A stretch of 61,217 nucleotides of DNA, filler included, from Bipalium vagum (lineage: Eukaryota), in the NCBI GenBank assembly GCA_037834085.1. It is 3 parts of 3 records of this genome, joined end to end, with 100 filler letters (N's around TTAATTAATTAA, not from the genome) between each part and the next. Parts side by side here need not be neighbours in the genome. Positions count along the whole stretch, not along the records: positions 44,204 to 61,217 come from JBBMKC010082682.1; 2 more parts are not named here. One strand, written 5' to 3'. The translations under genes were made by a program, and so were the position numbers. The notes below the pieces were generated by a model that did not search any database, had not been told where the DNA came from, and saw only the letters and a program-made list of their open reading frames with translations. Positions 21,232 through 59,220 of the stretch are shown in pieces (the first letter of the stretch is position 1; every line of letters starts with the position of its first letter).

Positions 21232-21331
21232 NNNNNNNNNNNNNNNNNNNNNNNNNNNNNNNNNNNNNNNNNNNNTTAATTAATTAANNNNNNNNNNNNN
21301 NNNNNNNNNNNNNNNNNNNNNNNNNNNNNNN
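21232..21331. other. Artificial contig-joining spacer (44N-TTAATTAATTAA-44N)
   Basis: Exactly 100 bp. The central 12-mer gives stops in all six frames. An identical structure occurs at 44104-44203. Confidence 0.97.
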
Positions 21332-26821: not shown

Positions 26822-28669
26822 TTTGATTAAATACGAAACTAAAACTTTCGCGTTGAAATAAATAAATTAGCTATTTTAAACAAATGACTTTTAAATAAAT
26901 ACTTATAAAATAGTAAATAATTAAAAATAGAAATTATTTAAATTTTCGTTTTCTAGAATTGAACTTTAAATTTTTTCACCAAAGGATTTTCCTCAGTTTT
27001 GGTGGAATGTTTATTTAATTTATTTTTAGAAAATCTAAGATTATAATAAATTCAAAAGATTAATTTTCCACCTAAACTTCTTTATAAGTTAAGTTTAGTT
27101 TAAAATAAAAAATAATGAAAACCTAACATTTCACAATCAAATTGAAATTTTTTACAACTTGAAATACAACTTAACAGTATATATGCTTAAAATTTATTAT
27201 TCATTTCTATTACCAGTTGAAAATTCATTGAAATTCTTAATTAATAAATGTTTGATTTTAATTTTGAATGTTAATCGACTCTCTTTAGACTCAATATGAT
27301 TTTTCAAATTTTTAGGTATTTCAAGGAAACTTTTTTTCACAATCACGATGTGTAGGAATTTGATTGTTCAAGAAACTGTTGTACAGACAAAACTTTTTAA
27401 ATAAGTTTCCATTGTTAAGGCTCTGTTTATTAATTTTCTATTCTGAATAAATTTTCTTTTAGAAGGAATTAAAATTTAACTTTAAATAAAATTTTCAATG
27501 AGAATGATATAAAGCATTGTTTAATGAATTAATGATAAATATCAAATTATAAATTTAAAATTTAAAAAATCTACAAACTAATTTAGAAACTTCAATTAAA
27601 ATTACAAAGAAATAGTAGCAAATCTTGATATCTTTGGAATTAAAAAATTGTTAGTGAAAAGTACAAGAGTTAACGAAAGTGCTACTTTATAAAATATAAC
27701 TTTAAGCTCTCAAATTTTCTGATCTCTAAATATTAGTTATTAATGTGTTCTTACACTGGTAAATCATAATCGTTGATAAATGAATCTAAAAATAACAGCA
27801 GTAAACCTTATTTCATAAGGTATAATAATATCAATCACAAATGTTGTTCAGTAAATCAAAAACTGTAATCGAACGATTATTATAAAAAAAAGACGAAGAT
27901 AAATAAATAACACTGGTATGACAAGAAATTTGCACTCGTAAAATTTTAAAAGTATTTAATCGATTATGCTAAGTTATGTACAAATCCAAATTTTTTTTAA
28001 TTCTATCGGACAGTTTTAAAATTATTGACATTTGAAGTAAAATTACATTTTTTTCAAATAAAATTACATACAATTTGTTTTATTGACCTTTTTTAAAAAA
28101 AAACAAGCAGGAATCTATATCGCCACAAAAAATATTGTTCAGATTTACAATCATTTAAGAAGAACAGTGAGAATGAATCAGATTATGAAGAAATAAAAGT
28201 TGAAGAATTTAGATAGTTCTTAGAAGTATTCAATAATTTTTGTAGAGAATTAAATCTCAGCAAATTAATCCAACAAATGCATTTTTATACTTAAAAAGCA
28301 TCCAGATTTGAAGAAAAAACTTATATCGGTCACTGCTTTCACTACATCTTAAATTAGACTTCTGATGGAAGATGCTGCTTTTCCAGTAACAATGTGAAAT
28401 AAGTAGCATATAGCTTGGACTAACTTTTGTTCTGTTGCTAAAGATGTGAATGAAGACTGAAAAAAAAGTCGATTTGTAAATGTATAGCTTTCAAGCTTTG
28501 GGCTGCTCAAGTGGGACCACTAAAATTAACATGTATTTTAAACACAAGGAGCAATATATTTAGATATTTTTTCCGATGAACATGAGGAAAGGCTGCACAA
28601 ATATATGCAATCAATAGAAAAGCGATATAACAAATACTTAGAAATAGAAATACAATGAATACATTTTTC

Positions 28670-29300
28670 CCAAACCTGTCTTGTTTTGGAACAGCCTTGG
28701 GCTTCTGGCCTGATTCCAACCATTGATTTCTTCTGTTCAGATTATAAAAATATATCCATTTTTCGTCGCATGTGACTATGCGATCTATAAAGCGTTCATC
28801 GAGCACTGAATAATATCGTCACTACTGCATAAATAAATCCACTTACATACCATGTTCTTTGTGTATAATCTTCTGCTAAGAAAGGCAATTAGGTGTCGAA
28901 CTTTTCGCTTGCATCAGTTCCTTCTTTCCATAGAAAAAACATGATATTTCTTTGATTGTTGACAGTGTCTTCCATGGTATAATACTAAGAAAAAACAAAA
29001 CATTATCTGTGTATGACTCATAATAATCGATTTTCATTTTCTTTGTTTGATTTCATTACCTGCTGCTTTCTACTTCTTAGACACTCAATTTATAATTTAA
29101 CAATAAAGACTCTCGTTATCAGAGTTAGTGAAAACACTTTCAACAAACTTTAACAATCCTTGTGGAAGGTAATATACTTTTTCCAACGTTCCACCAGTTT
29201 CTTTATTCATTTTCCAAGCTATTCAGAAAAGAATTGCTTTATGGAGTTCTTCAGAACTGTTTTCTCACGCTGACTCGTGAAATAAACACTAAGGAAAGGA
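28670..29300 (-). mobile_element. Mariner fragments
   Basis: RIVTCDEKWIYFYN..QWLESGQ at 28680-28805 and a mariner C-terminal remnant (KLVERWKK) near 29140-29220. Confidence 0.65.
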
Positions 29301-30340: not shown

Positions 30341-31247
30341 ACTAGACCTCTATTATTATGTATATGTGTAACTAGATTAATTTGAAGTCGATCTCCGGAA
30401 GACTGGGATCATTCCAAACGATCACAATTAAATGAAAATAGGGAAGTTCACTTATCATTTAGAAAATTTTCACTAACAATTTGTCTTTTAAATGATAGTA
30501 CGACCATATTAAACTGCTCAAATACACGATTTCCTCCGATGTTATGCATATGACTTTATTAACAAAAATCAATATTTTTAATATAAAATTAACAAGCACT
30601 TTAAAACACTAAAAGTACTATTTTTTTTCAAAATTATTTTTAGATGATAACCAACGCATATGGACAGAAATGACGACTATTTGGAATTTTTAAATAAAAA
30701 TATTAATAACTTTAAAGTAAAAAAATCTATCTCAAATTACAATCAATAAACAAAGTCTGCTAAATTTCTGTCTTTATATGTATAATTTATGAACAAAAAT
30801 ACATACTCATATCGACAAAATTAATAAAAAATTAACAAAGTCACATAATTTATGTACCATTTAAATCCATTTAAGCCTCGTCTACACTGGCTCTTTCAAT
30901 TCGAGAAGCATGTTTAGTGAGACATTTGATAACATCTGCTCCTGCTCTGCGATACCTTCACATGATGTAAAATTATAAATGCATAATTAAATCCAGCAAT
31001 TAAGCAATGTCAAAGTTGAATATTATTTGCATTTTACAGTTTTATTATTACGATCGACAAAATTAATCTTTTGTAAATTAATCATTTTTAAAGTGAACTT
31101 GAGACTAATTAAAACAAATATTAATTAATTATTTTTTGATTAAATATTCGATCTAAAAATCAATATTTAAATATTTTATGATTTTCAATTATAAATAAGT
31201 GGAATATATTTTATAAAAATGTATAAAATGTGATTGATAATGGTCAT

Positions 31248-32291
31248 ATGTTTCGGTCAAGTAAATCGTCAATTTCCGAAAAGTCAGAGTATCTGGTGGA
31301 TATTGATATTTTAATATCAAAATTAATTGAGGGGGGCCACCTTGGAGACCGTATCCAATTATCCTCATCTGAGTGCAAAGCGATCGCCGTTGTTATTCGT
31401 TCGGAATTTGATTCAAGCATATGTATTTATGTTAATGGCCCGGTTAATATTTGTGGAGACATTCATGGGCAATATTCAGATTTAATAAGAATTTTTGATT
31501 TGTGTGGATATCCTCCAGATAGTAGGTATTTGTTTCTAGGAGATTATGTGGACAGGGGACGACGGGGACTCGAAGTTTTGATGTTATTATTCTCTTATAA
31601 AATAAAGTATCCAAAATCGGTTTACCTGCTCCGAGGAAATCATGAATGCGAACGAGTGAGTAGAGTTTACGGTTTTCGACAAGAAATCAAAGAAAGATTT
31701 AAGTCCAGCAAAGTGTGGAAAACATTTATCAGAACTTTTGAGTTCATGCCACTTTGTGCAATTATAGAAAAGACAGTATTTTGCTGTCATGGAGGTTTAT
31801 CGCCGATATTACTGAGTAAAAATTGCAAAACAATTGAAGATGTATTTAGCCAGTTTTCGTTACCTGCCGAAATACCGAGTGAAGGCCTACTTTGTGATTT
31901 AGTATGGTCCGATCCGATGGATCAGACAAACAAATTTGAACCAAAAGGATGGATAAAAAGTAGACGAGGATGTTCATGGAATTTTGGATATGATGTTATC
32001 AATGAATTCTTAGGAAAATACCATCTCGACTTGATTGTGAGAGGTCATCAGGTCGTGGTCGATGGATACGAATTCTATTGCAATCGTTCTTTAGTAACAG
32101 TATTCAGTGCTCCCAGATATTGTGGAGAGTTCGATAATGCTGCCGCAATTTTCGTTTTGGAAAAAGAAAAAAACAAGGATGAACCAACCTCTTTGGAAGG
32201 ATCGTTTAAAATTTTATTACCAGATTACAATATTCCGCACCAGTGGTTCAGGAACTTGAAACCAAAAAAAGAATTCGGATTTTTCAGTTAA
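31248..32291 (+). CDS. Intronless PP1-like Ser/Thr protein phosphatase (PPP family)
   Basis: Intact GDIHG, GDYVDRG, LRGNHE, HGG, DLVWSDP, RGHQ and SAPRYCGEFDN motifs. First in-frame ATG at 31248. Confidence 0.93.
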   Translation: MFRSSKSSISEKSEYLVDIDILISKLIEGGHLGDRIQLSSSECKAIAVVIRSEFDSSICIYVNGPVNICGDIHGQYSDLIRIFDLCGYPPDSRYLFLGDYVDRGRRGLEVLMLLFSYKIKYPKSVYLLRGNHECERVSRVYGFRQEIKERFKSSKVWKTFIRTFEFMPLCAIIEKTVFCCHGGLSPILLSKNCKTIEDVFSQFSLPAEIPSEGLLCDLVWSDPMDQTNKFEPKGWIKSRRGCSWNFGYDVINEFLGKYHLDLIVRGHQVVVDGYEFYCNRSLVTVFSAPRYCGEFDNAAAIFVLEKEKNKDEPTSLEGSFKILLPDYNIPHQWFRNLKPKKEFGFFS

Positions 32292-34575: not shown

Positions 34576-35298
34576 CTAAAGGTATGGTAATAGCAAATTG
34601 GTCTCACAAGCATGACCACCAGCTACATCGGTTGTAGTTTTGACAGATAAGCCAAATAGGGATAATGATGTTACAACCTTTGGTGAATTCACGCAAGAAC
34701 TATGTTTGTTACTCGACCAATATTTTGGATCTATCAGTATTTTGGAATTGATCCATCGATAAGATCCAGATAAATTCGTTGAATAAGTTAAGCAACCACC
34801 TCCTACCCATATTGAGTCTAGTGGAAGTAATGGCTTCGACGTTTGAAATAATTCTGTACTTGTCAATTCAGCAAGAACCATGTCATTGTTTTGACATTCT
34901 TTTATGGCATTATCATATGATTCTGAGCTCAGCAAACCTTTCTTAAGGCTCAAAAACTTGACAGCCAAATAGTCTTCTCCAATATCAGTGAAATTTCTCT
35001 TATAAAACACCTGAAACAGACTGGTACAATTATTTACATTGGATATTACAGCCTGATTCGCGTAATTAGTACAAACATCGTTAGTGATCGTATATCCCGA
35101 GCAGGCATCCTTTTGGTCGGAGCACCATGATGCACAACGCACAGAGGTTGATTGGTAAAAGGATCTTGACGTCGAATACATCATTTCTATCAAACAAGTT
35201 GGTAACATTATTTTATAATACATGTAATTATTCATCTGGCAATACAAACCCTTCTGGAAACCCAAGAGAAGCCACGTTACTCTCGTTAATAAAAACAT
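34576..35298 (-). CDS. Secreted PAN/apple-like + C-type lectin-like domain protein
   Basis: 240-aa intronless ORF with signal-like N-terminus. CASWC..CSGY..C PAN-like segment followed by CTLD hallmarks (SYDNAIKEC..LAEL, IWVGG, YRWIN, HACE). Confidence 0.75.
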   Translation of the reverse strand: MFLLTRVTWLLLGFQKGLYCQMNNYMYYKIMLPTCLIEMMYSTSRSFYQSTSVRCASWCSDQKDACSGYTITNDVCTNYANQAVISNVNNCTSLFQVFYKRNFTDIGEDYLAVKFLSLKKGLLSSESYDNAIKECQNNDMVLAELTSTELFQTSKPLLPLDSIWVGGGCLTYSTNLSGSYRWINSKILIDPKYWSSNKHSSCVNSPKVVTSLSLFGLSVKTTTDVAGGHACETNLLLPYL

Positions 35299-35671: not shown

Positions 35672-36430
35672 TTAATTAGCTGGCTTGACAATTTGAAATG
35701 AACATTGTAAGTTTTCATCAACACTCATAAGCGCAGCTGCATTATCAAATTCGTTGCAATAGTTTGGGGCTGAAAAGATTGTGACCAACTTTCTATTAGC
35801 AAAGAATTCATATCCATTTTGAACGACTTGATGAGCTCTACACACAAGTTCCAGATCATTATTTACAAGAAATCCCAAAAGGACTTTGTTTCCAAAACAA
35901 TAGCTGACACCTCTTTCATTTGCATCATAGTAATCCACAAACTTTGAAGGATCAGACCATAATAAATCACATTCGAATCCATAATCTCCAACTTCAGCAG
36001 GCCTTTTACATGTATTTATAATGCTAATATCGTTCAAGTGTGGGAATATTCCTCCATGGCAGCAAAATATTCTTGAAACAATAACAGCAGCAAGAGGAAG
36101 ATAGTTGAAGCAATCTGTAATTTTTTTTTATCTTTTCATGTTATATTTTCTTTTACATTCCTCTAAAAAAACCAATAAAACCTATTTATATTTGAACATT
36201 CATGACCATGTATATCTCCTGCAATTTTCACTGGAGTAAATAATTCCAATAAAACTAATTGCTGTCTGAACACACCTTTTGCAAATTGACATAATTTTTG
36301 TATTTCTTGAAAAGTCAAAGAGTTTTCACAAATCTTTCCAGGAAGCTGCTTCTTTTTACTTGTTTTCTTTCCAACTTTCATCAATTTATTTATACAGTTA
36401 TCTAAGAAATCATGAGTAGTAGTATTGTAC
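35672..36430 (-). pseudogene. PP1 catalytic subunit pseudogene (intronless, internally deleted)
   Basis: GDIHG is fused directly to HECSNINRFY, so the GDYVDRG region is missing; stops and a frameshift follow. The C-terminal half retains CCHGG, DLLWSDP, RGVSY, CRAHQVV and [11 protein letters not shown]. Confidence 0.88.
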
Positions 36431-43287: not shown

Positions 43288-44103
43288 TTATTATTATCAT
43301 TATCATCATTATTTTATTTATTTAACATTAATATTAATATCTATTTTTATAAAATGATGATAATAATAATTTTAATCAGTTATACAATTTTCGTTCCCTT
43401 TTCCTATTTTTAAGGAAATATATCATTTAATTTTTTAAAATAAATTAATTTCCAGAGTATATGTCATATATAATTTTGATCTTAAATAAATATAATCAGT
43501 GAAACCCTCGGATTTCCTTCACTGTCAACTTAAACTTTTGTTATGTTAATAAGTTTATAAGCACCATTGACCTTCATTGTAGCCTTCAATATTATTTTCT
43601 CTCTATTTTTCTATTTTTGAACCATTTAAACATGTCAATAAATGAAATACAACTTGCCTTTAATCATTTTCATGTGTAACATGTTCCAAATTATTAATCT
43701 CTTCCATTACGTCCTGGTGACACCACAGAGGATTCCTGGATTTCCTCTGAGATTTCTTTAAATGTCAAATTATTGTCTGACAGTATTGATGGTCTGAGAT
43801 GTCTGGAAATTTTTATGTGCTTTGCATCCGAATGTTCCTTCGTTTCAAACAAATATATATTATATGTATTATGTTCAAAACCTTTCAGGATAAGTGATAA
43901 AATCCAGTTCTTTTGGTTTGTTGGTATCTTCAAAGAAGTTTTATATTGGGTAGACATTTTGTAAAGGTTACTAAGAAGATCTTTGTCACCTTTCCTTCAC
44001 CTGCATGAAACGAGCGAACAATATTAACCACCTGTACTCTGTTTTTTAAATGATCTGTTGCTTTATACTTGAAAAATTCTAATTATATATATATATATAT
44101 CTA

Positions 44104-44203
44104 NNNNNNNNNNNNNNNNNNNNNNNNNNNNNNNNNNNNNNNNNNNNTTAATTAATTAANNNNNNNNNNNNNNNNNNNNNNNNNNNNNNNNNNNNNNNNN
44201 NNN
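44104..44203. other. Artificial contig-joining spacer (44N-TTAATTAATTAA-44N)
   Basis: Same 100-bp structure as 21232-21331. Confidence 0.97.
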
Positions 44204-44558
44204 AATCATGCCAAATTTTATTGAAATATAAATATTTTTTCGGCTTCATTCTAAGGACTTATCAGCCCAACCATGTACATTCAATTGGAAAAATAAATAG
44301 ATTTGACAAATGGATTTCACACCAACTTAGTCTTGAAAACGTGCATTTCTAATATCTTGATATTTAAAAATAAAATGCTTACAAATATCCTTATCATCCT
44401 AAGATAATAATATTCAATAAAATATTGATAAATTACAATATATTGTAATTAATGATAATCATAATAGTAATACTATAATTAATAATAATATTAATTTTTA
44501 ATTTACTGAATTTTAGGGCATATTTCCATAACATATTAAGGATAAAATTATTTATAAC

Positions 44559-45208
44559 CTTTATTTATATTTATTGACGAATCTGTCAGTCCAAGGCTTG
44601 GCCAGTTGGAGTTGAAGCATGGTTGATTGTTAGCGAAAATTAACTTTTCAGTAAAAGAAGAGCCATAATGCAATGCCAGTAAAGGGTTGATGTGATATGA
44701 AGAAGAAGGTTTGTAGAAAAGGTTGTGATTCGACTGCAATCCTCGCTTATTGGGAATTATGATCGAACTTTGGCCATTGATGGACTGTTCAGTCAAACTC
44801 GGCTGAAGCTTTTGTGCATTCATATGACTAGAACTTTTAAAACAATTGCCGTGGTTAAAGTAGGACATTTGAAAAAGGGTATTGGTTCTTTTCTTTTTTC
44901 TTTTCGTGTGAGACGCATAATTGTCTCTCGCCGACCAATTTGGATAGAGTTGTTGGTGGAGTTCCTTTTCCTTGCGAGCCATCTCATAATATTTGGTCTG
45001 CTCTTCTCTCGTTAGAGCGTGCCATCGTCGTCCGAGAATTTGGTTTATCGCCGCCGACTCTTTCAAAGTGCACTCTGCAACAACACGGGACCTCATCTCT
45101 TTCATGAAAAGCATAAAAGCGTTAAGCGGTTTCTTAATATGGGTCTTCATTTTGTCAAATTCATTTTGAGAAGTCAACTCTGTCATCACTTTTGAGGACT
45201 TGTCGAAA
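44559..45208 (-). CDS. TCF/LEF-family HMG-box transcription factor, HMG-containing exon
   Basis: [57 protein letters not shown] plus basic tail KRKKKR. Bounded by a tttatttccag acceptor (45209) and a probable G|GT donor (44558). Confidence 0.92.
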
Positions 45209-45529
45209 CTGGAAATAAAAAAAGTAATAAAAATTTTGGAAATATTGGTTTTGGTTTAAGAATATGAGACACTGTTTTTTTATAATATTTTCAAATTTTC
45301 TTTATACAACATAATAGTAATTAAAGAAATAATAATAATAATAATTAAAATAGTAATAATATTATAATAATATTTTGTCTACAAATTGAAAAGGTGCGTA
45401 TTTAGTAAATGGCTCCAAAGTCATTATTAAATCGCAGTTTTTTGCTAAATTGGTAAATATTAATATTCCATATAAATAGCGATAAATCAAATGGCATATC
45501 AAATAATACATAAAAGGCATTGTTTATTA

Positions 45530-45835
45530 TTTGCCTTACAATTGAAGAAAATGGCTTATGAGGCCACAAATATGATTATTTCCACTCTGGATAAAGGTGG
45601 TCAGCTCTAAAACCTCAAAAAGTTGTTTGATCGTTTTAGAAGTGAAATCTAGACTTTTAACGATGCAGAACGCCCAGGTGTATCAAAAATCAGTATGGAT
45701 GAAGGCCTTGAGAATTTGTTAGATGAATATTATAATATGTCAGACACAATCAGGACTTGCAATACAACTTGAAGTTACTCAGAAGCCAATTTCTTGTCGA
45801 CTCAAAAAGTTTGCAGGTGGGTACCGCATAATTTT
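45530..45835 (+). mobile_element. Mariner 5' fragment
   Basis: FDRFRS..DAERPG and WVPH remnants. Confidence 0.6.
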
Positions 45836-46559
45836 TAAAATAGAATATTTATTTATTATAGACACTACAAGCTGTTTTATATACAGTGTTAATAGTAAAT
45901 AAAGTGATAATCATCAGCTGCTCCCCCAGTCACTAGTGGTTGTCATCTGCGACACCTGAGAGCGACCATAAAAGCAATTTAAGGGTCGAGACAAAGCACA
46001 ATAATCTCATTAGTGAGATTAAATCGATCTCTATTCCCACTGCAGTCGACATCTGCTAGTGGGGATAGGAAAAAAAAGAAAAAACACAATAATTACAAAA
46101 TTACGTACAACTTATGTATAAAAGGTGGGTCAACAATAAAAGGATTTCTAGGATAAACAGTAAACATTGTAAAAGACTAGTATTAAATAAGCCCAAAAGG
46201 GATAAAAAGTTAAAGACAAGACAAATGCGGGGACTTTACAATCAACCAAACCAACAAAAATACTACTATGCAGCTGGAAAAAATACATTGAGGAGGACGA
46301 TTGACGGTGGGACTTGGTTCTGGGAGCTAAATTCGGATATATACACACAGGAAAGAAAAATTACACAATAATAATCACACAATCCGGGAGGAATACAACC
46401 ATTGGGAGGGATCAATGAAGATTGAAGGAAAATATGCAGATTAGAGTTGGGAGATAAGGCAAGGAGAAATAGATACAGGGGTGTAATAATAGTGATAAAA
46501 TAATAAACAAGGATAAAATATAGAAATATGGATAAATAAATAATAAGGAGTGCAGGTTA

Positions 46560-47295
46560 CCCCTGGCCAGAAAGGTAAGTAATATGCGTCAGATAAATGT
46601 GGAGCGATTCCCTAACTGCCGTTATAAGGAGAACATGGGCGAAAGCACCTCTCTGATCTTTGGAAAGGCCGAGCTTCCATGACATCTGAAACATACCTGG
46701 CGTTTCTTTGGACAATCCCTGTTACTATGTTCTTACTATGTTACAGGTCTAGCATTCCATTTGTTTTCTTGACAGTTTCTCCCTAAATGGCCCTTCTTAT
46801 TACATCTGTAACATTTAATATTTTCTTTGAATATTGTATTCCTTTAAATGAGTCGATCCGTTTTCATCACTTTGTGGTACTCTCCTTGTAATTCCTAACT
46901 TTACTCACCGACTTCATCAAATCTTATATTTCGCTTCCTTTCAAATTCTGAAATCCCGTGCAACCTTCTGATTTCCAATACTCTGTACCAAGACAGCGCC
47001 TCGAGATTAACAACGGTCAGTTCATGTGAAAGTGGTTTTTCTATCAATGCTCTTGTCTTTCTAAAAACAAAGCTTCAATATCATCGCTGCCACTTCTATA
47101 CGTTATTAACTTCTAGGAGTTTTTCTTCGAAACTTAATCGAATTCTTCAAATCCGCTTACGTTCCCCGATGCTTCATTGTAGATTTCCCATAAATCCTAA
47201 AGTAACACCACTAAAATCGCTGTTTTCTCATCTTTGTTGGTGTCTCCTTAATGTCAAAGTATTTGGCTGAAAATATTGCTGAAAATGGAGAATAT
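46560..47295 (-). mobile_element. Retrotransposon gag remnant (probably Ty3/gypsy) with CCHC zinc knuckles
   Basis: IKCYRCNKKGHLGRNC, a decayed second knuckle (H.NRDC) and VCFRCH. Many stops and frameshifts; no pol directly downstream. Confidence 0.65.
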
Positions 47296-47299
47296 ATTT

Positions 47300-48388
47300 A
47301 TAACGGAGCTCTAAATCATTATGATGAAGATGAAGAAAATGAAATAAAAGAAGTAAATTTTATTAGAAATGAAAGTGAAAATTAATTTTTAAATGTTACT
47401 GGAGATTCAATGAAAGGAATTTTAAATATGAATAATAATGAAATAGTAAATATAGTTGATCTAATAAATGATAATGATCTTGTACATTTTAAATTTGTAA
47501 AAGAGAGAATAAAAAATATTAAACCAAATTATTGAAAATAAAAGAGACTAATATAAATAATAGAAATATTAAAGGTTTTAATTTTAATTTTATTTTATTT
47601 AAAGAAAAATTTTATAATGATAAAAAACATTTAGAAGATAAAAAATTTAGATATTAAACACCTCAATTAAATCTTGAGAAAATTTTAATAAAGATATAGA
47701 AAAAAATATAAATAAAAAATATTCAGATATTGAAATAAAATATAAATCTATAGAAAAAGATGTTAATGAAATGCGAACTATGTTCTCGAAAGCAAGCACA
47801 CACAATTAAGTTTTAGAATATAGCATATTTCAGATATTATAAAAAACTTAAAATAAATATAAAATATTCTTATGCTGTTGATGATTATAAAAATGGAAAT
47901 CTTTAATAAAGTATATTTTCTGGAAAATTAAAAATAAATTTAAATGAACTTGTATATTTTGGTGGAGAAAGAATTTTTATTTGAAAAATGCATTTACAAT
48001 AATATCAGTTGCAGACAAAATTAATATGAAATTGATAAGATTGTAAATTTTGGAACAAAAATCATTATCATATTTTTGTATGGTATAATAATTATAGGAA
48101 TTATTTTATTGTAAATGGAAGACCTTTAGAGAAAACCTATGCTAAAGAATATAAAGGAATATATTTAGTATTTTTAAGATTTGGTGTGATAAAGTTACAA
48201 AAAAATTAATTTTTTATAATTCCGAAAATAAATTTGAATCTATTTGTAATGATTATAAAAATCTTAAATTAAAAATTAATTCACAAAATATAATAATTTA
48301 TGAGATTATAGTTTTTCATAGATATTTACAAAATAACGAGCTACAAAATAAAAGAAATAGAAATTTTTATGAAAAAAATTTATCCTAA
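47300..48388 (+). pseudogene. Viral fibre/receptor-binding-like protein remnant
   Basis: LNVTGDSMKGILNMNNNEIVNIVD..D tail-fibre-type repeat (~47389-47505), a coiled-coil-like middle, and a LamG-like C-terminal IYEIIVFHRYLQNNEL (~48297). Confidence 0.55.
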
Positions 48389-48490
48389 TATATGATTCAA
48401 TGTAGCGTTTTGAGTCTTCCAAACAATTCTTTACAATGTACAATATTAAAAAAAATCTTTACATTCATTTTTCAAAATTTATATTAAAAA

Positions 48491-49157
48491 ATGGAAATTG
48501 AACCAAATGCTCCTTTTGAAAAACTTTATCCAAATTTAGAAAGTAATGATAATAAGAGAAGATTATCTTCCAAATTTATTTAAGATTCTAATCCACTTAT
48601 GAAAAATAAAAAATTGAAAATTTTTTGAATGAGAAAAAAGTTTTAGAAGATCTGTTATCCCATTAAAAAACAAATTAAAATTTAGATATACAAAATAAAA
48701 TTCAGGTATAAAAACAGCAAGTAATGTTATAACTGGAGTTATTTGAGTTGGTACTGCAATAATGGCAGAAGTTTCAACTTCAGGAATTGGATTATTAATT
48801 TATATTACTGCTGCAACTGGAATTCTTGGTGTTATAAATTTAAACATTTTTGAAACTATTAGGAAAAATTTAAGAAGTAAAAAGAAAAATCTTTACAGAG
48901 AAATTTTCTGAGTCTATAGAAAAATCAATTAGTAAACTTTATTTTTCAAATGAAAGCTTTAGAAGATAAGATTTTAACTAATGAAGAAATTGAACAAGCA
49001 AAAATAATTATTAATGATTGCAAATATTAAAGCTATTAAAGCAGGAAATGTTATTGAAAATGTTAAAAGTAAAGCAAAAGACAATTTGAAAATTGTGTTG
49101 AAGAAAGAGTATAAGGCAGCTATAAAACAAACCCACGAGAAAATGAAAAATTTATAA
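48491..49157 (+). pseudogene. Adintovirus-type membrane-active ('GasderminX'-like) protein remnant
   Basis: Starts MEIEPNAPFEKLYPNLE. Contains a Gly/Ala/Thr-rich hydrophobic hairpin (VITGVI*VGTAIMAEVSTSGIGLLIYITAATGILGVI), a basic patch and a KALEDKILTNEE motif. Confidence 0.65.
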
Positions 49158-49399
49158 AATATTTTATTTTATTTTTAAAAAATGAGTGATCTATATAATG
49201 GGAAATTTTCACATTAAACAAAATTTTATATTTATTAGAATTTTAATCTGAATTAAAAAAAATATTGAAATCTATTCTTTTCAAGATATTTATGATTTTT
49301 TGGAAATAGAATATTTTATTTTTCCATGGGAATAATTATTTTAATTTTTTTTGAAAAAATTGAAATAGATTCAAAATAAAATTTAATTGATATTAAAAA

Positions 49400-50131
49400 T
49401 GAAATTGAAATATTAAAAAAATTAATAGCAGTAGAAGAAGAGTATAATAATTAAATAATAAATCAATGGGAGTTACAAAATAGAATACAACGAGAATTAA
49501 AAATTTTTCATAAACTAGTAACTGATATATTGGGAACAAAAATAAATAAATAAAAAATGATGAAAACAAAACTAAAAAATTAATTGTTTCTAAAAATAAT
49601 GAAATTACAAATGATCTCCATGATAATTCAATACAACGAGTAAACATTCAGTGAGATACAAATGCAGAAAAAATAACAGAAAGTATAAAACCAATTTTTA
49701 ATAACAATTTCTGAACAATAAATGACTGAATATTTTAAGTTTTTAAAAGATGTGAAAAACATTTTTAAGAAATAAAACAACTAAAAAAGATTTTAAAACA
49801 TTAATAGAAGGAAAATAGTGTTCAGAAAATAATTTAAAAGAAATGAACAATTATATAGAAATATTCAAAAGTGTAAAATCAAGTATGAAATCAGATTATG
49901 TTAAAAATATTAAAAACCAAACAAACAAACTTAATGAAATAAAAAGAGGAGGAGAAAGTTATAAAATTTACAAATCAAAAGATTCGCTTGTTCAATTTAT
50001 AACTTTAAGAAAATATTTAGCAGATAAAAAAGCAGGACATGATAATGTTGATCATTAAATTTTAAAAATTTTAAATAAATTAATAAACCAAACTAGAATT
50101 ACATATAAAAATTATGAAAAATATTTTTAAT
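49400..50131 (+). pseudogene. Conserved Polinton/adintovirus 'AGN'-motif protein remnant
   Basis: C-terminal LRKYLADKKAGHDNVDH*ILKILNKL resembles the L.LL.A...AGN....EI..I..EL motif of Polinton core-like ORFs. Preceded by a KRGG possible cleavage site. Confidence 0.55.
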
Positions 50132-50195
50132 AACTGACCACAATTTGACTTAAAATAATAAAAATATATTTAAAAAAATAACGAAATTAAATTTA

Positions 50196-50960
50196 TGTTG
50201 ACTTACAGAAAAAAAAACCTTTTATCTCAAAAATTTTCTTCATCATTTTAGTAAAAAGTAAAACATCAGAAATATTTTTTATATTTAATAATACTTTATA
50301 TATTCATCCTAATTTAAACAATGAACTAGGATTAGTTTATTTGTCAACTTATAATTCTATATTTAATATAAATGAAGATAATAATTGAATTAATATAACA
50401 GTAATAAATAGTAAAATTTTACCCGATACCTAAAATATCAGATTAACCCCGGGTGCTTATGAAATTTTAGAAATATCAAAAGTAATAGAAAATGAATTAT
50501 AATATGATAACACTTTAAAACCTATGGAAGCGACTGTAGTTTCAAATGGTAAAACCATTGATAAAGAATATTACATAAAAATTAAACCTAATTCTGTTTC
50601 AGGAAATTGTATAATGAAAATAGCCAAATGATGTGAAGTTCATTTTCACTAGCTAATTTTTCAGGGTTTGAAATTATGATGTATACTAAAGGAATTCATT
50701 ATTCTAAAAAAAATTAATATTTCAAATTTCAATAACATTATGATAGATTGTAATGTTGTAAATGGATCCTTTTTGATTTCCCAAAAAACACTGAACGAAG
50801 AGGATATAAGCTTATAGAAAGACCAGATTTTCCAATTTATTATTCCGTAATTGTAAGGATAATTGATAAAATAAATTTTAGAATTATAGATGATAATGAT
50901 GAGTTAATAAACTTTAATGGAGAATATATTACTTTTAGAGTTCATTTAAAGCAGGTGTAA
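50196..50960 (+). pseudogene. Minor capsid protein (penton, single jelly-roll) remnant
   Basis: LSTYNSIFNINEDNN, PGAYEI, IMIDCNVVNGSF, GYKLIERPDFPIYY and IIDDNDELINFNGEYITFRVHLK match the Polinton mCP pattern. Stops and frameshifts present. Confidence 0.8.
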
Positions 50961-50986
50961 ATTTTCATTTTCTTTTTTTTCAAAAA

Positions 50987-51570
50987 ATGGAGTTCTATTG
51001 TGATGGTTTCTTAAATAATAATTCTGTAAAAATTAAAAATAATTCTAATTTACCAGAAATTTTTAGAATATTAATTATTGGTCCTTCTAGATCTGGTAAG
51101 ACAATGTTATTATATAATATGTTATTAAAAAAGGAATATTTCGATTATAAAAATTTGATTATTTTTTCTAAAACGCCTTTGCTAAAATTACACTTATAAA
51201 GTCCATGAAATTAAAGTAACATTATCAGCAAATGAAATTCAACCTCCGGATAAATTGGATAAAACTAAAAAATATTTTAACTATTTTTGATGATGTAATA
51301 AATGAAAAAAATCAAACTATTATGGAAATGTATTTTACAAGAGGAAGACATAATAAATGTTCAGTAATATATTCATCTCAATCATTTTTGGATTTACCTT
51401 TAAAAAGTATAAGAAATAATACTAATGTTTTAATTTTCTTTAAAATTTCAAAATCAGATAAAAATCGAATTTATTCAAAAATATTAGCTCATTTTTTGAG
51501 AGAAAGATGTGTCTGATTATTTGTATGATTTCCATATAAAAGAAAACTATAATTATTTTTTATAAATTAA
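50987..51570 (+). pseudogene. A32/FtsK-HerA-family DNA packaging ATPase remnant
   Basis: Walker A RILIIGPSRSGKT, Walker B LTIFDD, arginine motif TRGRH, sensor SQS and IRNN. Split over two ORFs. Confidence 0.9.
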
Positions 51571-51679
51571 GAGAGCAAAACTCTTACAATCAGCATTCAA
51601 CTAAATTGAACTAGCAACAAAGCTGCACATTTTAATATTTTAAAAACCTTCGGATTTATTTTCAATTTTTTTCTCAAAA

Positions 51680-52922
51680 ATGAGGAATAATTTGAACTTA
51701 GATAAAAATACATATCATCAAGATTTAACAATTAAAAAATGTGATTATTTAGAAGTTCCTTTAAATCCTACAACAGCAACAAATTTAAATAAAAATGGAA
51801 ATTTAACTTTTAGTTTATTACAATCAGCATATGCTTTAGATTTATCAGAAACACTTTTAGTTTTTGAAATTGAAATATTTGATATTAAAGCAGATGAAAA
51901 TATAACTCTACAAATAAAGTTTTTTCCATATCTATTTTCTAATGCAATTTTAAAGTTAGGTTCAACAGAAGTAGAAACAATTCAATATTCAGGAGTCTCA
52001 AATTCTATATCAAATTTTATAATGTTTAAAAATGAAACTTTAAGGGAGAAATATTTTTATGGATTCCTCATAAAGAAAAAGAAAGTGTAGCAAAAGGCAA
52101 TAAAGGATATAAATCAAGAAAAAGTTTATACTCTCAAAATAAATATACAGGTGAATTTCCATTAAAATTAATGATTGGTTTTTTACAATATTTTAATAGA
52201 GTTATTTATAATATGCAAGGGGAATTAACATTTACAAGAATTATTGATATTGATAAAGAAATATTTTATGGAACGAACGGAGATAGAAAAATAAAATTAC
52301 TTGATTTAAAACTATTTATTCCAGAATTACAATTGAATCCTGAAACTGAATTAAAATTAATAAGTAGAATTGATGATGGAAAAAATATTATTGTAAATTT
52401 TTTATCAAGACATTGTGAAGAAAGAAATCTTACAGAAGGAACAACTCAAACATTACAATTATATAATATTCCAAATAAACCAATTTATTTATAAATTTTA
52501 GAGAGTCTGAATTTGATTTTACAAAAATTAATAGTTTGTTTTTTCAAGATAAAATAAAATCTTTAAGAATTCAAGTTAATAATTACTATCCATTAAATCC
52601 AATTCAATTTGAAAAAGGGAAAAATAATAGAACTTATTCAAATTATGTAAAAGCATGTGAATATTTTGGAAATGATCCTCAATTAAGTTTATTGGAATTT
52701 CAAAATTTATATTCAATATTTTGTTTTGATTTAAAAGATCAACCAGAAAATTTATGTTTAAATGGTGCAGTTGTAACTCTTCATATTTTAAAAGATAAAA
52801 ATTTTAAAGGAAAAATAAATGTTGTTTTGTTACAAGAACAATTTATGGAATTAAAATTAAAAGAAGGAGAAATGTTTAATATTGAAACATCTAATATGTT
52901 CACAAAAGAGAGTTTGAAATAG
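51680..52922 (+). pseudogene. Double-jelly-roll major capsid protein (hexon-like) remnant
   Basis: Three consecutive ORFs totalling ~410 codons. FFPYLFSNAILKLGSTEVE, GFLQYFNRVIYNMQGELTFTR, YYPLNPIQF and LSLLEFQNLYSIFCFDLKDQPE match Polinton PY/MCP patterns. Confidence 0.82.
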
Positions 52923-53117
52923 ATTTTTCCATAATGTTTTATAATTTTTTATTACATTTTTTTATTGCCTTTTTTACTGTTTTTTTTCTCATTTTATAAA
53001 TTTTTAAAAAGATCTTGAGAGATGATATTAGATAATATTTTTATTTTTTAAATTATTTAATTTATTGGTATATTCTAGAGATACCAATTTTTGATAATTT
53101 ATAAATTTCATAAAAAG

Positions 53118-53244
53118 ATCATCTGTTCAGGTCTCATTAAAATTATCTGAATTGAAAAGAATTTTCTATAGAGATCGATATCAAAAACGCCTTGGACAAT
53201 TTCTTTGTGTGTACGTCCACCAGTTTTTATGAGGAAAGAATCAT
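53118..53244 (+). mobile_element. 127-bp mariner fragment of the same family as 14129-15401
   Basis: Close match to the reverse complement of ~14257-14383 (atcatctgttcaggtctc..tcgatatcaaaaacgccttggacaa..gtccaccagtttttatgaggaa). Confidence 0.85.
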
Positions 53245-54060
53245 ACTCACAATATTCTTTATCATGAAATGTAACTTTTGATTCTTTGTGTTCTTGACAC
53301 AACCTTATATGTTCATTTATAAAATTTTATCATATATAGGAATTTAAAGATTTTGAAAAAACATATTTACTATGATTATTATTATTATTAGAAAATATGT
53401 ATATATTTCTAACATAATATTTAAAACATAATGTTACATTTTCTATTTCCATATTTGGTTTTGCATTAAAATGTTCTTGATATATTGGTAGTATGTTTTT
53501 ATTGCTTCTCAACTCCAACTTTGTTGGATCATTGTTTTTTAATTCAAATATATTTATACTAATATTGTTTTGCTTATTAAATTTTTTAACATCTTCTATT
53601 TTTAAAGGAAATTCAATATTAATTTTATTTTATTCATTACTATAAAGTTTATAATTATTTAATCTTTCCGAATGAATTATTACTGGGTGAAGATAACCTA
53701 GTACAAATATTTAATTTTTCTTATATTCAAAGGATAATTTAACATAAAATGAACCTATTGATATTTAATTAAATTTATTTGAATAAAATTTATATTTACA
53801 AACTTCCATCCTGAAACTGTCAATTCTCTTTCTACAATAATTGTGTTTAATTATTGAAGATGATGTTGAATTGATGTAGTTATTTCCGTCTTATTAGTTA
53901 ATACTTGTGGATGTGTATAAAATTTATATGCTAGTTCTTCTTCTTTGTTAGTACCATGATTTATAATATGAAGATTAATATATTTACATTGTATTAATAT
54001 TTGATATTTAAATTTATCTTTAGTATAATCACATTGTTGGTTGGTTTTTTTCATCATCAT
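53245..54060 (-). pseudogene. Protein-primed family B DNA polymerase (Polinton/adintovirus type), N-terminal region only
   Basis: SGWK, GSFYVKL, LGYLHP..SERLNNY and NIEFPLKIEDVKKFNKQNNISINIF match the conserved pre-exonuclease region of group-2 Polinton PolB. Catalytic domains are absent. Confidence 0.78.
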
Positions 54061-54099
54061 TTTTAATTAACTGTTTAATTATATATATTATTTTAAAGC

Positions 54100-55930
54100 T
54101 TGGGTGTTAGGAGTATTTGAAACATCCTTTCTGTAACTTCAAACAAACGACATCAAACAAAGCTGATGTAAAATTGGCTGATTTCACAAATATGAAACTA
54201 TATTTTGTATGCTTTGTCTTGCAGCACTCGATGAGAGAAATGTGCCACGAAGTTATAGGTAAATATAAGATAAATAGGGAGTTTTTATGAACCAGGTTTG
54301 TTATGATAATTATAAGCAGAAATCCAGAGCTAGTAGCCCCCATGCTTTTGCCAGACCAGGGAGTATTTACCAAAATGATGGGAGACTTCATCACTAAAAC
54401 GTGGAGAGAGGCAGTCATCGCAATTATCAGCAAATGAGCTTGGATATTTTGTAACCAGAGAAGAATTTCTGACATTAAACGAATTTGTCCTGCATTTCAA
54501 ACAATTTTTGTATGGTAAACACGATGAACACACAATTTCCACGTGGTTAGCGAGTTTATCGGAATTCAATTTTAAATTAAGATATCAGAAAGGAGAGGAA
54601 AATAGTAATGTTGGCAGTAGATCCAGAATTGGAGATATTTCGTGTGCACAATGTCAAATTAGACATGAGGGAGCCAAGTTGGAGTAACCGAAAAAAGAGG
54701 TACTAATGCAACTCATAGTGTTTATATACAGTTGGAAAGAATTATGTCAGAACAGGTGGCCGATTTCTCTATTGCTAATATGATAGCATGGTTGTTGGAG
54801 TGGAGGAGTAATGTACAGGAAAAATTTCAAAATATTAAATTTTTCAATGGAGAAATGACCAGGACATGGTGTATGAGTTGTTGGTGTTAAGAAAAGATGA
54901 ACGAAATTTGATTATAAATTCAGAAGAATTTGTGAAAGAGGTTCACGTAGTATTGTGTCATTTCGGAAGAAAATATTCTATTCTAATATTCTATTATTTA
55001 AAGGACCTATATTCTTGGCCGTCGATGTGAAGCTCGATCAATACATGCTTGAAAACTTTTATTATTTGTGTAAAACGTAAAATATATAAGACCTGCACAA
55101 AAGAGATTCTTTGATTCCCAGAAGATTTTAAAATTTAATGAAATAGATTGTAATTTACGTGGCCTACATGGATAAGGCTAGAGCGTATTATAAATACTTA
55201 ATTGTAATTATCGACCATTTCAGTAAGCTGGTGAGTTTGAATGCATTAACTAATCTGAATGACAACTCCATCTTCAAGGCCGTGATGAATCAGTGGATCT
55301 AAAAATTTGGTAGACCAAAAAGTATTTTAACAAATAGAGAGAAGAATTTTGAAATTTCATGGTTTCAACAAAATTGAAGGAGTTGGAAATTAGGCAAGAT
55401 TTTAGTTCAAATTATCAATATTAAATGAAGATAAAAACAAGCACGAATTGTTACCAAGAATCGAATTCATTATTAATGTTATCCGACAAAGTTCCACGAC
55501 TTTTTCTCCTTTTGAAATCATTTTGTGTTACAAAGTAGGTCTACATGCCAGTGTAGAGGATCACAATTATCACGATACTGAAATTATCAGTCTAGTCAGA
55601 AATGTCGTGGTGTGAAAATGAATGAGTTTAAGAAGGATAAAAGAGATCACCGATAATTTGAAATTGGAAAATTATTCGTCAGGAAGGAACCTCAGAATTG
55701 AGAGAACGATTTCAAATATGATAGCCCAGACCTCAAAATTTATATCTCTGCATCAAATCAAATTGAAGGGTCTGGGTGGTTTTAAAACAAGAATTAAATG
55801 GCTAAAGTGGCAGCAATCTTCTGCGAAGAGGGAGTTAAAGATTAAATAAGACTTTAGTTTGAATAAATACTTTTTGATCTCAATTCCATTTATTAATTAA
55901 CATGAAAGAAGATCTAACTCTAACTATAAG
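54100..55930 (+). mobile_element. Ty3/gypsy pol remnant (RNase H + integrase) with PPT
   Basis: ELGYFVTREEFL..HFKQFLYGK, WLASLSEFNFKLRYQKGEEN, an HHCC-type VHVVLCHFG..ICVK, YLIVIIDHFSK and KFGRPKSILTN. Purine tract gaagagggag near 55825. Confidence 0.8.
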
Positions 55931-56406
55931 ATTTATATTTACAGAACCAAAGTTTTCTAAACCTATGAGAAAGTACTAAAACCAGCTACTGGATGTTTTC
56001 AAACATAATCACAGTATGTCCAACAATACAAGGTTTAATTTTCCACTTGAAGTAGAATTCGATTATTTTTATGAGATTACAAAATAAAGTACAATATGAA
56101 CCAATACTCACCAATGAGAGGTTATTGGTTAAAAGCAAAATCTGTTCAAATAACTTCATCTCACAATAATATAAAATATTTATAAAAATAATGTGGCAGT
56201 CTCCTAAGAATTTATATTAGACAGCATTAATAATTATACTAATGCGGGAGTCTGGGTTTGTATGTATAAAATTGTAAAGCAAAGAAATAAGAAAATTTCA
56301 CTAACTTCTAATAGATTTACAAATTATTGAGATTCACAAACGAATGGAATTATAAATGTTGATGAGTTCTAAAACTGACCCATGTTACTTTCAAAATAAT
56401 ACAACT

Positions 56407-59220
56407 TTATTGAGTTTTCAGTTCATTAATTCTGCTCTTGAGTTTTGTTAATTCCTCTTTAATCTGATTTGGTAAATAGTCTCCAATTTGTTCTTTGAAA
56501 TATTTTTCAATTTCATTGACCTCACTTTCCCAAAATTCTATTGGAATACTAAATAATTCTTCCATATCAATTTCCGATTCATTCAATCCATTTAAGTTAA
56601 AGTCAGAAATAATTGGTAAGTTTCCTATAACCGTTTCGTTACAGCGAACTTTTCCATCTAATCTTTTCAATATCCAATCAAGGACTCTACAATTCTCTCC
56701 AAATCCAGGCCATATATAGCGACCCTTGCTTGATTTTCTGAACCAATTTACATGATAAATTTTTGGTAATTGAAGTCCACTTTTAGTTGAAAAGCTAAAA
56801 AAATTATATTTTATAACGCTTATTATTATTTGATTACCTTAACCAATGTCTAAGATAGTCTCCAAAATTGTAACCAAAAAATGGACGCATAGCAAATGGA
56901 TCATGCATTATAATATTTGCTTTATGCTCGGCAGCAGCAGTCGATTCTGATTTCATTGATGCCCCAACAAATACTCCGTGAACCCAATTTGTAGCTTCAT
57001 AAATAAGAGGAACTCCTTCAGGTCGTCGACCTCCAAAAACTATTGCACTGATAGGTACTCCATCTAAAGATTCCCAATTTTCGTCAATAATTGGACATTG
57101 TGATGCTGGCGTACAAAATCTAGAATTAGGATGAGCAGCTTTGGTATTTTTTGTCTGAAATACAATTATTGATAAGAAAGTTATAAATATTTTTAAGATA
57201 GTATTTGCAAAATTCTTAATTTTCATGAGATTTCTAGTTCGAGAAAATAACAGATTGGACCATTGTTAAATGTTTTGATAGAAAAGTCAGTAGCACAAAT
57301 ATATATAATTATATTGTAAAAATTGGCTAATAAAATGAGTTTATTATAAAATTCTAAGTAATTAATAAAACATATATATATATATATATTATATATCATT
57401 GCGTGACATTCGGAATATGTACGTGATACATCTATACATATATTTTATTAGATTTTAATAGTATAGAGCCCTGACCAATAATGAACCCCTCAATGTATTT
57501 TTGACGAAAAAATAATAATCAGTCAGACTGTGAGAACCATATTTGTAAAGCAAAATATGAAATTAATGTTTTGTTAATCTAGATAAATACAATGAATGAA
57601 ATTTATATGGAATGAAATTTAAGTAGTCAATTAAGATATGAAATATATTTTTATAAAATCTATATTTGAGAATTTAGCATATTTTAAATTTTTTTATTTT
57701 CAATTTTTGAATAGAAATTATTAATTTAAACATTTTGTCATCAAATGTATTACGATTCTTCATTAATTTAAATGCAATATATTGAAATAGATAATGAATT
57801 TGATTCAATAAAACAAATTTTGAAAACTCAATAAATAAATAAAAATCATGCGTTAGCACAATTCTAAAAATTAAGGTATTGGTATTGAAAATTACTTTGT
57901 CCCACGGATTTCCTTGCCAGTCAATTATCTTAACATTACTCCAATCGATTTCATCTTCCATTCCTTCCCAAAAAAACCCTCCATCACTTGTCTCAGCGAC
58001 ATTTGTAAAAATTGTGTTCTTTTGAATACAACGCATTGCATTTGGATTGGTTTTGTAAGATGTTCCTGGTGCTACACCAAAAAATCCATTTTCTGGATTA
58101 ATTGCTTTTAGAATTCCATTTTTATCAAATTTCATCCACGCTATGTCATCTCCTACACATTCAATTTTATATTCTGGCAAACTGGATTCTAGCATGGCTA
58201 AGTTTGTTTTGCCACAAGCACTGGGAAAAGCAGCAGCGATATAATGTTTTGCCTGATTAGAATCTGTTACACCAAGAATCTTAATAAATAATTAAGTTTT
58301 AAAAATTTGCTTAGTGAAAATTGTTACCAGCATATGCTCAGCTAACCAACCTTCTTTGTAACCAAGTATTGATCCCAACCTTAAAGCAAAGCATTTTTTT
58401 CCCAACAGTGAATTTCCGCCATATCCACTTCCAAAGCTGCAAATTTCATTTCTTGAAGGGATATGAGCTATTATAGTTCGTTCAGGATCACAAGGCCAGC
58501 CGTTAATAATTTTTTCTGGAAAAAGATAATTATATTTCATAATTATTTATTTTACTTGTCGTTGGTAAAGGAACTCCTACACTATGAGTGGATCTTACAA
58601 AATCATTACTATTTCCGAGTGTCTTTAAGACTTGTACACCAATTCTTGTCATGATTCTCATACTTGCTACTACATATGGGGAGTCTGTCAATTCAATACC
58701 AATTTTAGACAGGCTCCCTCCTACTGGACCCATACTAAAAGGAATTACGTACATTACTCTTCCTAAAAATTAATTTCATAAAGAAACTAAAAATAATTTA
58801 AACCTTTCATACAACCCGGAAATCGTTTATTTAATTCATTATCCATCATAGCTGGAGACATCCAATTTCCTAATTTTCCTTGAATATTACTATCGATTTC
58901 AGGAATTGTTGTCTCTTTTTTTGCTGTACTTATAAAAGTTTTTGATTCAACTCTAGCTACATCTGCTGGATCCGTTCTAACCAACCAGCAATTTTCATAC
59001 TTTGATAACTTTTTAATGGCTCCTTTAAAAGTGGTCAATAATATATTAATTATAATGATAATCTTATACCTTGAGATAACATTATTTCTATCATCAATTG
59101 ATTTTCTTCTTCAGACCCATCACATACATGAACCGAATCAGGTTGACAAAGATTAGCCTTTTTTAATACATATTCCTTAACTGGTTCTGATAATCCTTCA
59201 ACATATTTCATATAAGACAT
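56407..59220 (-). CDS. PCK: Phosphoenolpyruvate carboxykinase (GTP), complete 7-exon gene
   Basis: Exons 59220-59070, 59022-58804, 58762-58556, 58515-58328, 58279-57896, 57154-56838 and 56794-56407, all GT-AG and in phase. Motifs [51 protein letters not shown] and WPGFGEN. Confidence 0.97.

What the first reader, a model, noticed from the sequence alone, without database searches (positions are those of the whole stretch)
47295..54095. Fossil endogenous Polinton/adintovirus-like DNA virus with a near-complete virion module in a probable flatworm genome
Seen: six co-oriented, intron-free, decayed genes (fibre-like, membrane-active, AGN-motif, penton, A32 ATPase with GPSRSGKT/IFDD/RGRH, ~410-codon MCP) facing a convergent pPolB N-terminus. 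Most are only readable across frameshifts. Established: MCP + penton + A32 ATPase + pPolB defines Polintons/adintoviruses (Preplasmiviricota). Inference: this is a relic of a dsDNA virus lineage that infected the host germline or neoblasts, probably of group-2 Polinton type. The compact gene order could define a new lineage. I cannot tell whether this family is already catalogued.
Basis: partly seen in the sequence, partly recalled or inferred. Interest (0 to 1): 0.88.

Follow-up and report, generated by a model that had tools for sequence, protein, structure and literature searches.

The report
Broken Polinton virus relic in animal
Broken capsid and DNA-packaging genes of a Polinton virus lie among retrotransposon debris beside ordinary animal genes, likely a dead relic of a virus group already known to integrate into flatworm and other animal genomes.

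Summary
Window 47295-54105 is a decayed Polinton/Maverick remnant. Its major capsid gene lies in three frames, collinear with an intact unnamed relative (51% identity), whose model folds as a double jelly-roll. The penton, A32 ATPase, AGH-motif gene, fibre-like start and a polymerase fragment match profiles of intact relatives; the membrane gene is only weakly supported. It is less complete than claimed: no protease, pX-like gene, Polinton integrase, polymerase core or terminal repeats were found. Gypsy fragments flank both ends, on a contig carrying host TCF and intron-bearing PEPCK. Capsid-encoding flatworm Polintons are in print (Schmidtea Polinton-1/-2_SM; 748 copies in 8 of 73 flatworm genomes). 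Gene order varies among relatives, so it does not define a lineage. 'Group 2' is not supported: relatives carry the divergent (Beta-like) polymerase. The host phylum is untested. What stays open is that the capsid sits in a clade for which I reached no named member. The scan noted a Polinton in another flatworm-like genome before, not this stretch. Verdict: new member of a known kind.

The parts
47295..48390 (+). Fibre-like pseudogene, probably cut at its 5' end; only 47371-47508 has a measured match, the rest is inferred from broken frames
   Evidence: Profile of 2 relatives iE 3e-4; a wider 9-sequence profile gave only iE 0.18-0.28; the name 'fibre-like' is recalled from the repeat motif
48491..49140 (+). 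Small membrane-protein pseudogene with one hydrophobic stretch; weak support
   Evidence: Pairwise to L025:5313-5753, 1 of 1000 shuffles as high; hydropathy about 2.0; 3-sequence profile iE 0.08; 2-sequence profile no hit
49440..50135 (+). AGH-motif (KKAGHDN) conserved Polinton gene of unknown function, broken; start uncertain
   Evidence: Profile iE 5e-7 at 49894-50124, 1e-4; tblastn from L003 E 9e-4
50196..50960 (+). Penton (minor capsid) pseudogene, 3 stops and about 5 frame changes
   Evidence: Profile iE 1e-18 and 5e-18; break count; model of intact relative matches mavirus penton, E 7e-11
50987..51540 (+). A32-like packaging ATPase pseudogene, at least 2 frame changes
   Evidence: Pox_A32 E 9e-4, below curated cut-off; profile iE 2e-16 and 8e-29; 58-60% identity to relatives over 77 aa
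51680..52922 (+). Double jelly-roll major capsid pseudogene, no stops, 2 frame changes (near 52050 and 52490)
   Evidence: PF21738 E 2e-9; three pieces collinear with P0002 at 46/49/60%; break count; P0002 model matches PBCV-1 Vp54, E 1e-15
53264..54105 (-). Fragment of protein-primed DNA polymerase: terminal-protein/vOTU region only, no exonuclease or polymerase motifs
   Evidence: Profile positions 129-237 (iE 2e-5) and 276-415 (iE 1e-10) of 1246; domain names from PMC11071308 passages plus motif recall
46560..47290 (-). Flank: decayed Gypsy-like gag with zinc knuckles, pointing away from the block
   Evidence: zf-CCHC E 2e-4; GC 0.38 against 0.20 in the block
54105..55800 (+). Flank: decayed Gypsy-like pol (RNase H, H2C2 finger, rve integrase), pointing away from the block; not the Polinton's integrase
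   Evidence: RT_RNaseH E 6e-3, Integrase_H2C2 E 0.02, rve E 6e-6, all below curated cut-offs but in Gypsy order

Best explanation
The block is a decayed remnant of a Polinton (Maverick) capsid module plus a piece of its polymerase gene, which likely entered the host's heritable DNA through the element's own integrase and then died. Shown: the genes, their breaks, the missing parts, the Gypsy flanks and host genes on the same contig. Inferred from intact relatives and the literature: the parent was a 12-20 kb element that copied itself by protein-primed replication, integrated by an rve integrase, and could package DNA with the ATPase into a capsid of double jelly-roll MCP and penton. After insertion, deletions and neighbouring Gypsy activity likely removed both ends, the integrase, the protease and about three quarters of the polymerase, while stops and frameshifts accumulated neutrally. 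The copy can neither replicate nor make its capsid; at most it could feed piRNAs (untested).
For: MCP, penton, ATPase, AGH and pPolB matches with reversed-window controls. Folds of intact relatives. Capsid relatives on contigs that also hold rve integrase (L001, L003), pPolB and a protease-like gene (L002). MCP nests with support 100 and 99-100 among them. Block GC 0.20 is like relatives' 0.23-0.28 and unlike flanks' 0.33-0.38. No N gap or linker between host TCF, the block and multi-exon PEPCK. Long host ORFs in the window are open, which argues against assembly indels as the cause of decay. Flatworm Polintons with capsid genes are documented.
Against: Integrase, terminal inverted repeats and target-site duplication, the direct marks of Polinton integration, are absent here, so the route of entry is inferred. 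Junctions were not checked with reads. The folds are of relatives, not of the window's own broken genes. No named reference Polinton could be put in the trees. The MCP is less broken than the penton (2 breaks in 400 codons against 8 in 245; p about 0.01-0.03, post hoc), which uniform neutral decay does not predict.
Confidence: 0.88

Rival explanations
1. The parent was a non-integrating Polinton-like (MELD) virus whose DNA was captured passively, for example during double-strand break repair or Gypsy-linked recombination.
For: No integrase, terminal repeat or target duplication at this locus; both ends abut Gypsy fragments.
Against: Members of the same capsid clade carry rve integrase next to the capsid gene (L001, L003). 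Both ends are truncated, so absence is expected. Flatworm genomes hold many integrase-linked copies.
Confidence: 0.06
2. The capsid and ATPase genes stayed under selection after the other genes died (a co-opted or helper-dependent capsid module), and their few frame changes are recent or assembly errors.
For: MCP 0 stops and 2 frame changes in 400 codons, ATPase 0 stops and 2 in 156, penton 3 stops and 5 in 245; binomial p 0.009, 0.019 and 0.03 for three ways of counting.
Against: Tests chosen after seeing the data. The penton alignment is weaker and may over-count: two of its frame changes are adjacent. A further ATPase frame change seen by eye is not counted. Both genes are still broken. No expression data.
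Confidence: 0.04
3. The block is a contaminant or mis-join from another organism or a free virus.
For: Sharp GC steps at both ends; the window is built from contigs joined by linkers; junctions unverified by reads.
Against: A free virus would not carry many stops and frame changes. The linkers lie outside the contig that holds the block and host genes. The flanking Gypsy DNA is decayed in the same way.
Confidence: 0.02

Closest known systems
Polinton-1_SM and Polinton-2_SM of Schmidtea mediterranea (PMC4028283 Table S1, read whole)
   Different: Those are 14.9 and 15.9 kb with intact genes; this copy is 6.8 kb, broken and lacks protease.
Eupolintoviridae (formerly Adintoviridae; Amphintovirales, Polintoviricetes), Beta-type polymerase class (PMC8502044; PMC12451622)
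   Same: Hexon, penton, FtsK/A32 ATPase and OTU-bearing pPolB; degraded endogenous copies are reported across animals. Relatives' polymerases are the divergent, weak-PF03175 kind.
   Different: No adenain, integrase or inverted termini here. The MCP is only 25-29% identical to two IMG/VR capsids with stronger PF21738 scores (L043, L052) and gave no hit to a third (L055), in a separate clade. Relatives carry PLA2 on or beside the integrase, which that paper ties to Alpha virion modules, so Alpha/Beta placement of the module is unresolved.
Unnamed environmental capsid clade (P0002, P0089; contigs L001-L004, L007, L022)
   Same: Nearest relatives, 51% identity over about 430 aligned columns; support 100; same penton, ATPase and AGH families.
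   Different: Intact genes and different gene order; no names or hosts on record for 20 of 20 clusters looked up, apart from placeholders.

Membership tests
Polinton/Maverick (Polintoviricetes) | Double jelly-roll major capsid protein | tested here: met
   PF21738 above cut-off on one window piece; collinear with P0002, whose model matches PBCV-1 Vp54 E 1e-15. Gene is broken.
Polinton/Maverick (Polintoviricetes) | Single jelly-roll penton | tested here: met
   Profile iE 1e-18; relative's model matches mavirus and adenovirus pentons.
Polinton/Maverick (Polintoviricetes) | A32/FtsK packaging ATPase | tested here: met
Polinton/Maverick (Polintoviricetes) | Protein-primed PolB | tested here: inconclusive
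   Only the N-terminal region remains (profile 129-415 of 1246); no catalytic motifs.
Polinton/Maverick (Polintoviricetes) | rve integrase | tested here: not met
   No hit in the block; the only hit is the Gypsy integrase. Present in capsid-clade relatives L001, L003. Loss by truncation is inferred.
Polinton/Maverick (Polintoviricetes) | Cysteine maturation protease | tested here: not met
   Profile of 6 relatives finds nothing under iE 0.46 in the window; the protease label of the relatives is from motif recall, Pfam gave no hit.
Polinton/Maverick (Polintoviricetes) | Terminal inverted repeats and 6-bp target duplication | tested here: not met
   No flanking inverted repeat in 44000-57000; the recalled terminal hexamer occurs once per strand on the contig, not at the block ends. 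Both ends are truncated.
Group 2 Polintons / Alpha adintoviruses | Archetypal PF03175-type pPolB | tested here: inconclusive
   Relatives: 1 weak hit, 0 of 5 (four of these were fetched by likeness to L025/L002, the fifth is L025 itself). Window fragment matches that class but was not scored against Alpha sequences.
Beta adintoviruses (group 1 binning in PMC8502044) | Divergent OTU-PolB; GasderminX and Cupiennin accessory genes | tested here: inconclusive
   Polymerase class fits; reference accessory proteins were in a supplement part that could not be read.
Eupolintoviridae (formal taxon) | Phylogenetic placement with exemplar genomes | not testable with these tools
   No exemplar sequence was among fetched proteins; trees hold unnamed rows only.

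The most novel reading that the evidence does not exclude
The relic is the first animal-host anchor for an uncatalogued Polinton clade known only from anonymous environmental contigs: a distinct capsid lineage (51% to its nearest kin, under 30% to the IMG/VR capsids tested) that infects small invertebrates such as flatworms and is separate from the Schmidtea Polintons in Repbase.
Probability: 0.25. Interest if true: 0.5.

Novelty: new member of a known kind. Interest (0 to 1): 0.3.

Why it matters
Modestly. Dead Polinton copies are common in animal genomes, and capsid-bearing flatworm Polintons have been in print since 2014. The value of this copy is as a host label: its capsid groups with unnamed metagenome sequences, so naming the host would tie an environmental virus clade to an animal lineage. 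Planarian Polintons are piRNA targets (PMC8532177 passages), so relics like this could serve as piRNA sources; that is untested here.

Tried and rejected
No whole genome was held, so copy number and intact sister copies could not be sought. Word-index search with one MCP piece: 0 of 190 candidates. Capsid scans of viral contigs: 0 of 10 and 0 of 144 stretches; prokaryote genomes 0 of 34; polymerase single query 0 of 6; ATPase piece 2 of 53, both 14-residue matches, not used. One run holds 0.57 of 1049 words of 46000-55900 and may be the source sample; no RNA holder listed; no read layout was obtained, so junctions are open. Idea that 52990-53250 is the polymerase C-terminus (clean internal deletion): 16 of 300 shuffles as high, no profile hit; rejected. 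Idea that the open frame starting at 47251 is the fibre start: GC there is intermediate, 0.26, and the opposite strand continues gag-like by eye (no Pfam hit), so 47295 is kept as approximate. Host naming: PEPCK search gave 3 uninformative hits; Atlas innexin hits were nematode and arthropod clusters, and the innexin lies on another contig. My sense that it is flatworm-like is recall only. PHROGs gave nothing useful. Paper searches with no result: adintovirus+flatworm, Maverick+Polinton+Platyhelminthes+capsid. PMC3671162 and PMC11131425 hold no 'group 1/2' wording. Motif search of the PMC8502044 supplement found nothing, but the file was cut before its protein files and Table S1.
Full report
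Setting. The window is made of contigs joined by N44-TTAATTAATTAA-N44 linkers at 21232 and 44104. The block lies on the contig that starts at 44204, with no N gap after that. This contig carries an HMG-box gene (PF00505 E 6e-22; TCF-like by recall) and a GTP-PEPCK gene split into at least six pieces. Innexin, protein phosphatase, MFS and Tc1-like genes lie on the other contigs. The host is an animal; its phylum was not established. The block has GC 0.20 against 0.38 and 0.33 in its flanks. The flanks are a Gypsy-like gag on the minus strand and a Gypsy-like pol on the plus strand, both pointing away.

Capsid. One of three MCP pieces passes PF21738 (E 2e-9). It found 37 proteins at E up to 0.001 among 1.84 billion; the Atlas put it near DJR clusters at 0.97, with low recognition. 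The three pieces cover residues 1-406 of the 413-aa P0002 in order at 46, 49 and 60% identity, 51% overall. The P0002 model (pLDDT 83) matches PBCV-1 Vp54 (E 1e-15), iridovirus and virophage capsids and viral DJR models.

Other genes. A capsid alignment fetched 38 loci from 461 candidate stretches, and a polymerase alignment 21 from 102. Profiles from their genes hit the window: penton iE 1e-18, ATPase 8e-29, AGH gene 5e-7, fibre-like start 3e-4 (weaker with a wider profile), pPolB 1e-10 and 2e-5. The reversed-window control stayed above iE 0.07. The membrane gene is weak (iE 0.08; 1 of 1000 shuffles; no hit). An intact penton relative folds like the mavirus penton (E 7e-11).

What is missing. 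Profiles for protease, pX-like, cupiennin-like, integrase and polymerase core found nothing in the block. The polymerase remnant covers profile positions 129-415 of 1246 and stops before the first exonuclease motif at 437. No terminal repeat flanks the block. This is a truncated, internally deleted copy. On the strict test it fails three defining features as a locus; it is filed as a remnant because its capsid clade holds contigs that have them. L001 and L003 carry rve integrase, and L002 a 1403-aa pPolB and a protease-like gene.

Decay. A frameshift-aware count gives MCP 0 stops and 2 frame changes in 400 codons, ATPase 0 and 2 in 156, penton 3 and 5 in 245; the polymerase piece has 4 stops in 218 codons. 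The MCP is less broken than expected under even decay (p 0.009-0.03, post hoc). I leave this unexplained and give lingering selection low odds.

Placement. The MCP groups with P0002 and P0089 (support 100) inside a clade of 21 of 53 rows (99; quick IQ-TREE, careful search unfinished) or 14 of 36 rows (100; FastTree). The trees used subsets of the fetched full-length capsids, with near-duplicates left out. It is 25-29% identical to two IMG/VR capsids and gave no hit to a third, which scores 566 bits on PF21738. None of 20 clusters looked up had a meaningful name. Gene order differs among the 17 of 61 loci with four or more labelled genes. None repeats the window's order; AGH before penton recurs in 5 and fibre before membrane gene in 1. 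Order is thus no lineage mark. Relatives' polymerases fit the divergent Beta class rather than group 2/Alpha, but the window fragment was not scored against Alpha sequences.

Literature. PMC4028283 (part 1 of 4 and all of Table S1) lists Schmidtea Polinton-1_SM and -2_SM with MCP, penton, ATPase and protease. PMC10748475 (passages and supplement rows) counts 748 integrase-linked pPolB1 copies in 8 of 73 flatworm genomes. PMC8502044 (parts 1-2 of 6 and passages) reports degraded endogenous adintoviruses and presence in all eumetazoan phyla; its protein files and Table S1 could not be read and may hold members of this clade. PMC8532177 (passages): planarian Polintons are piRNA targets. PMC11071308 (passages): TP-vOTU layout of pPolB. 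PMC12451622 (passages): family renamed Eupolintoviridae. PMC6431247, PMC3671162 and PMC11131425 (passages) added nothing. I make no claim that the clade is absent from print: Repbase and most subscription papers were not searchable.

Verdict. A real, well-supported relic of a known class of endogenous DNA viruses, less complete than first described, with an open question about whether its capsid clade is catalogued. Interest 0.3.

Noticed in passing
window 21232-21331 and 44104-44203: N44-TTAATTAATTAA-N44 linkers: the window joins separate contigs, so genes left of 44204 are not neighbours of the block.
   Followed up: yes
window 46560-47290 (-) and 54105-55800 (+): Gypsy gag and pol fragments point away from each other around the relic; an inversion of gag plus relic would make them collinear, but no protease or LTR was found to show it.
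   Followed up: partly
window 753-1757 (+) and 6244-7032 (-): Two similar intron-free paralogues (334 and 262 aa) with a hydrophobic start and no Pfam family.
   Followed up: partly
window 31227-32291 (+) and 35672-36429 (-): Two protein-phosphatase-1-like genes, one intron-free (Metallophos E 2e-39), suggesting a family expansion.
   Followed up: partly
window 34576-35298 (-): 240-aa cysteine-rich, probably secreted protein with no Pfam hit; lectin-like by eye.
   Followed up: partly
window 10482-11262 (+), 14720-15082 (-), 28507-28818 (-): Tc1/mariner transposase fragments (Pfam for the first two; third by eye).
   Followed up: partly
L006:106-1713 and L013:124-1761: Packaging ATPase fused to the AGH-motif protein in two relatives, separate in others, hinting that AGH works with the ATPase.
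   Followed up: no
L003:5191-6513 (-) and L011:2-1171: Parvovirus-like phospholipase A2 domain fused to the rve integrase.
   Followed up: no
L049:10220-11251: One ORF matches the pX-like, PLA2/integrase and protease profiles together, a possible fusion.
   Followed up: no
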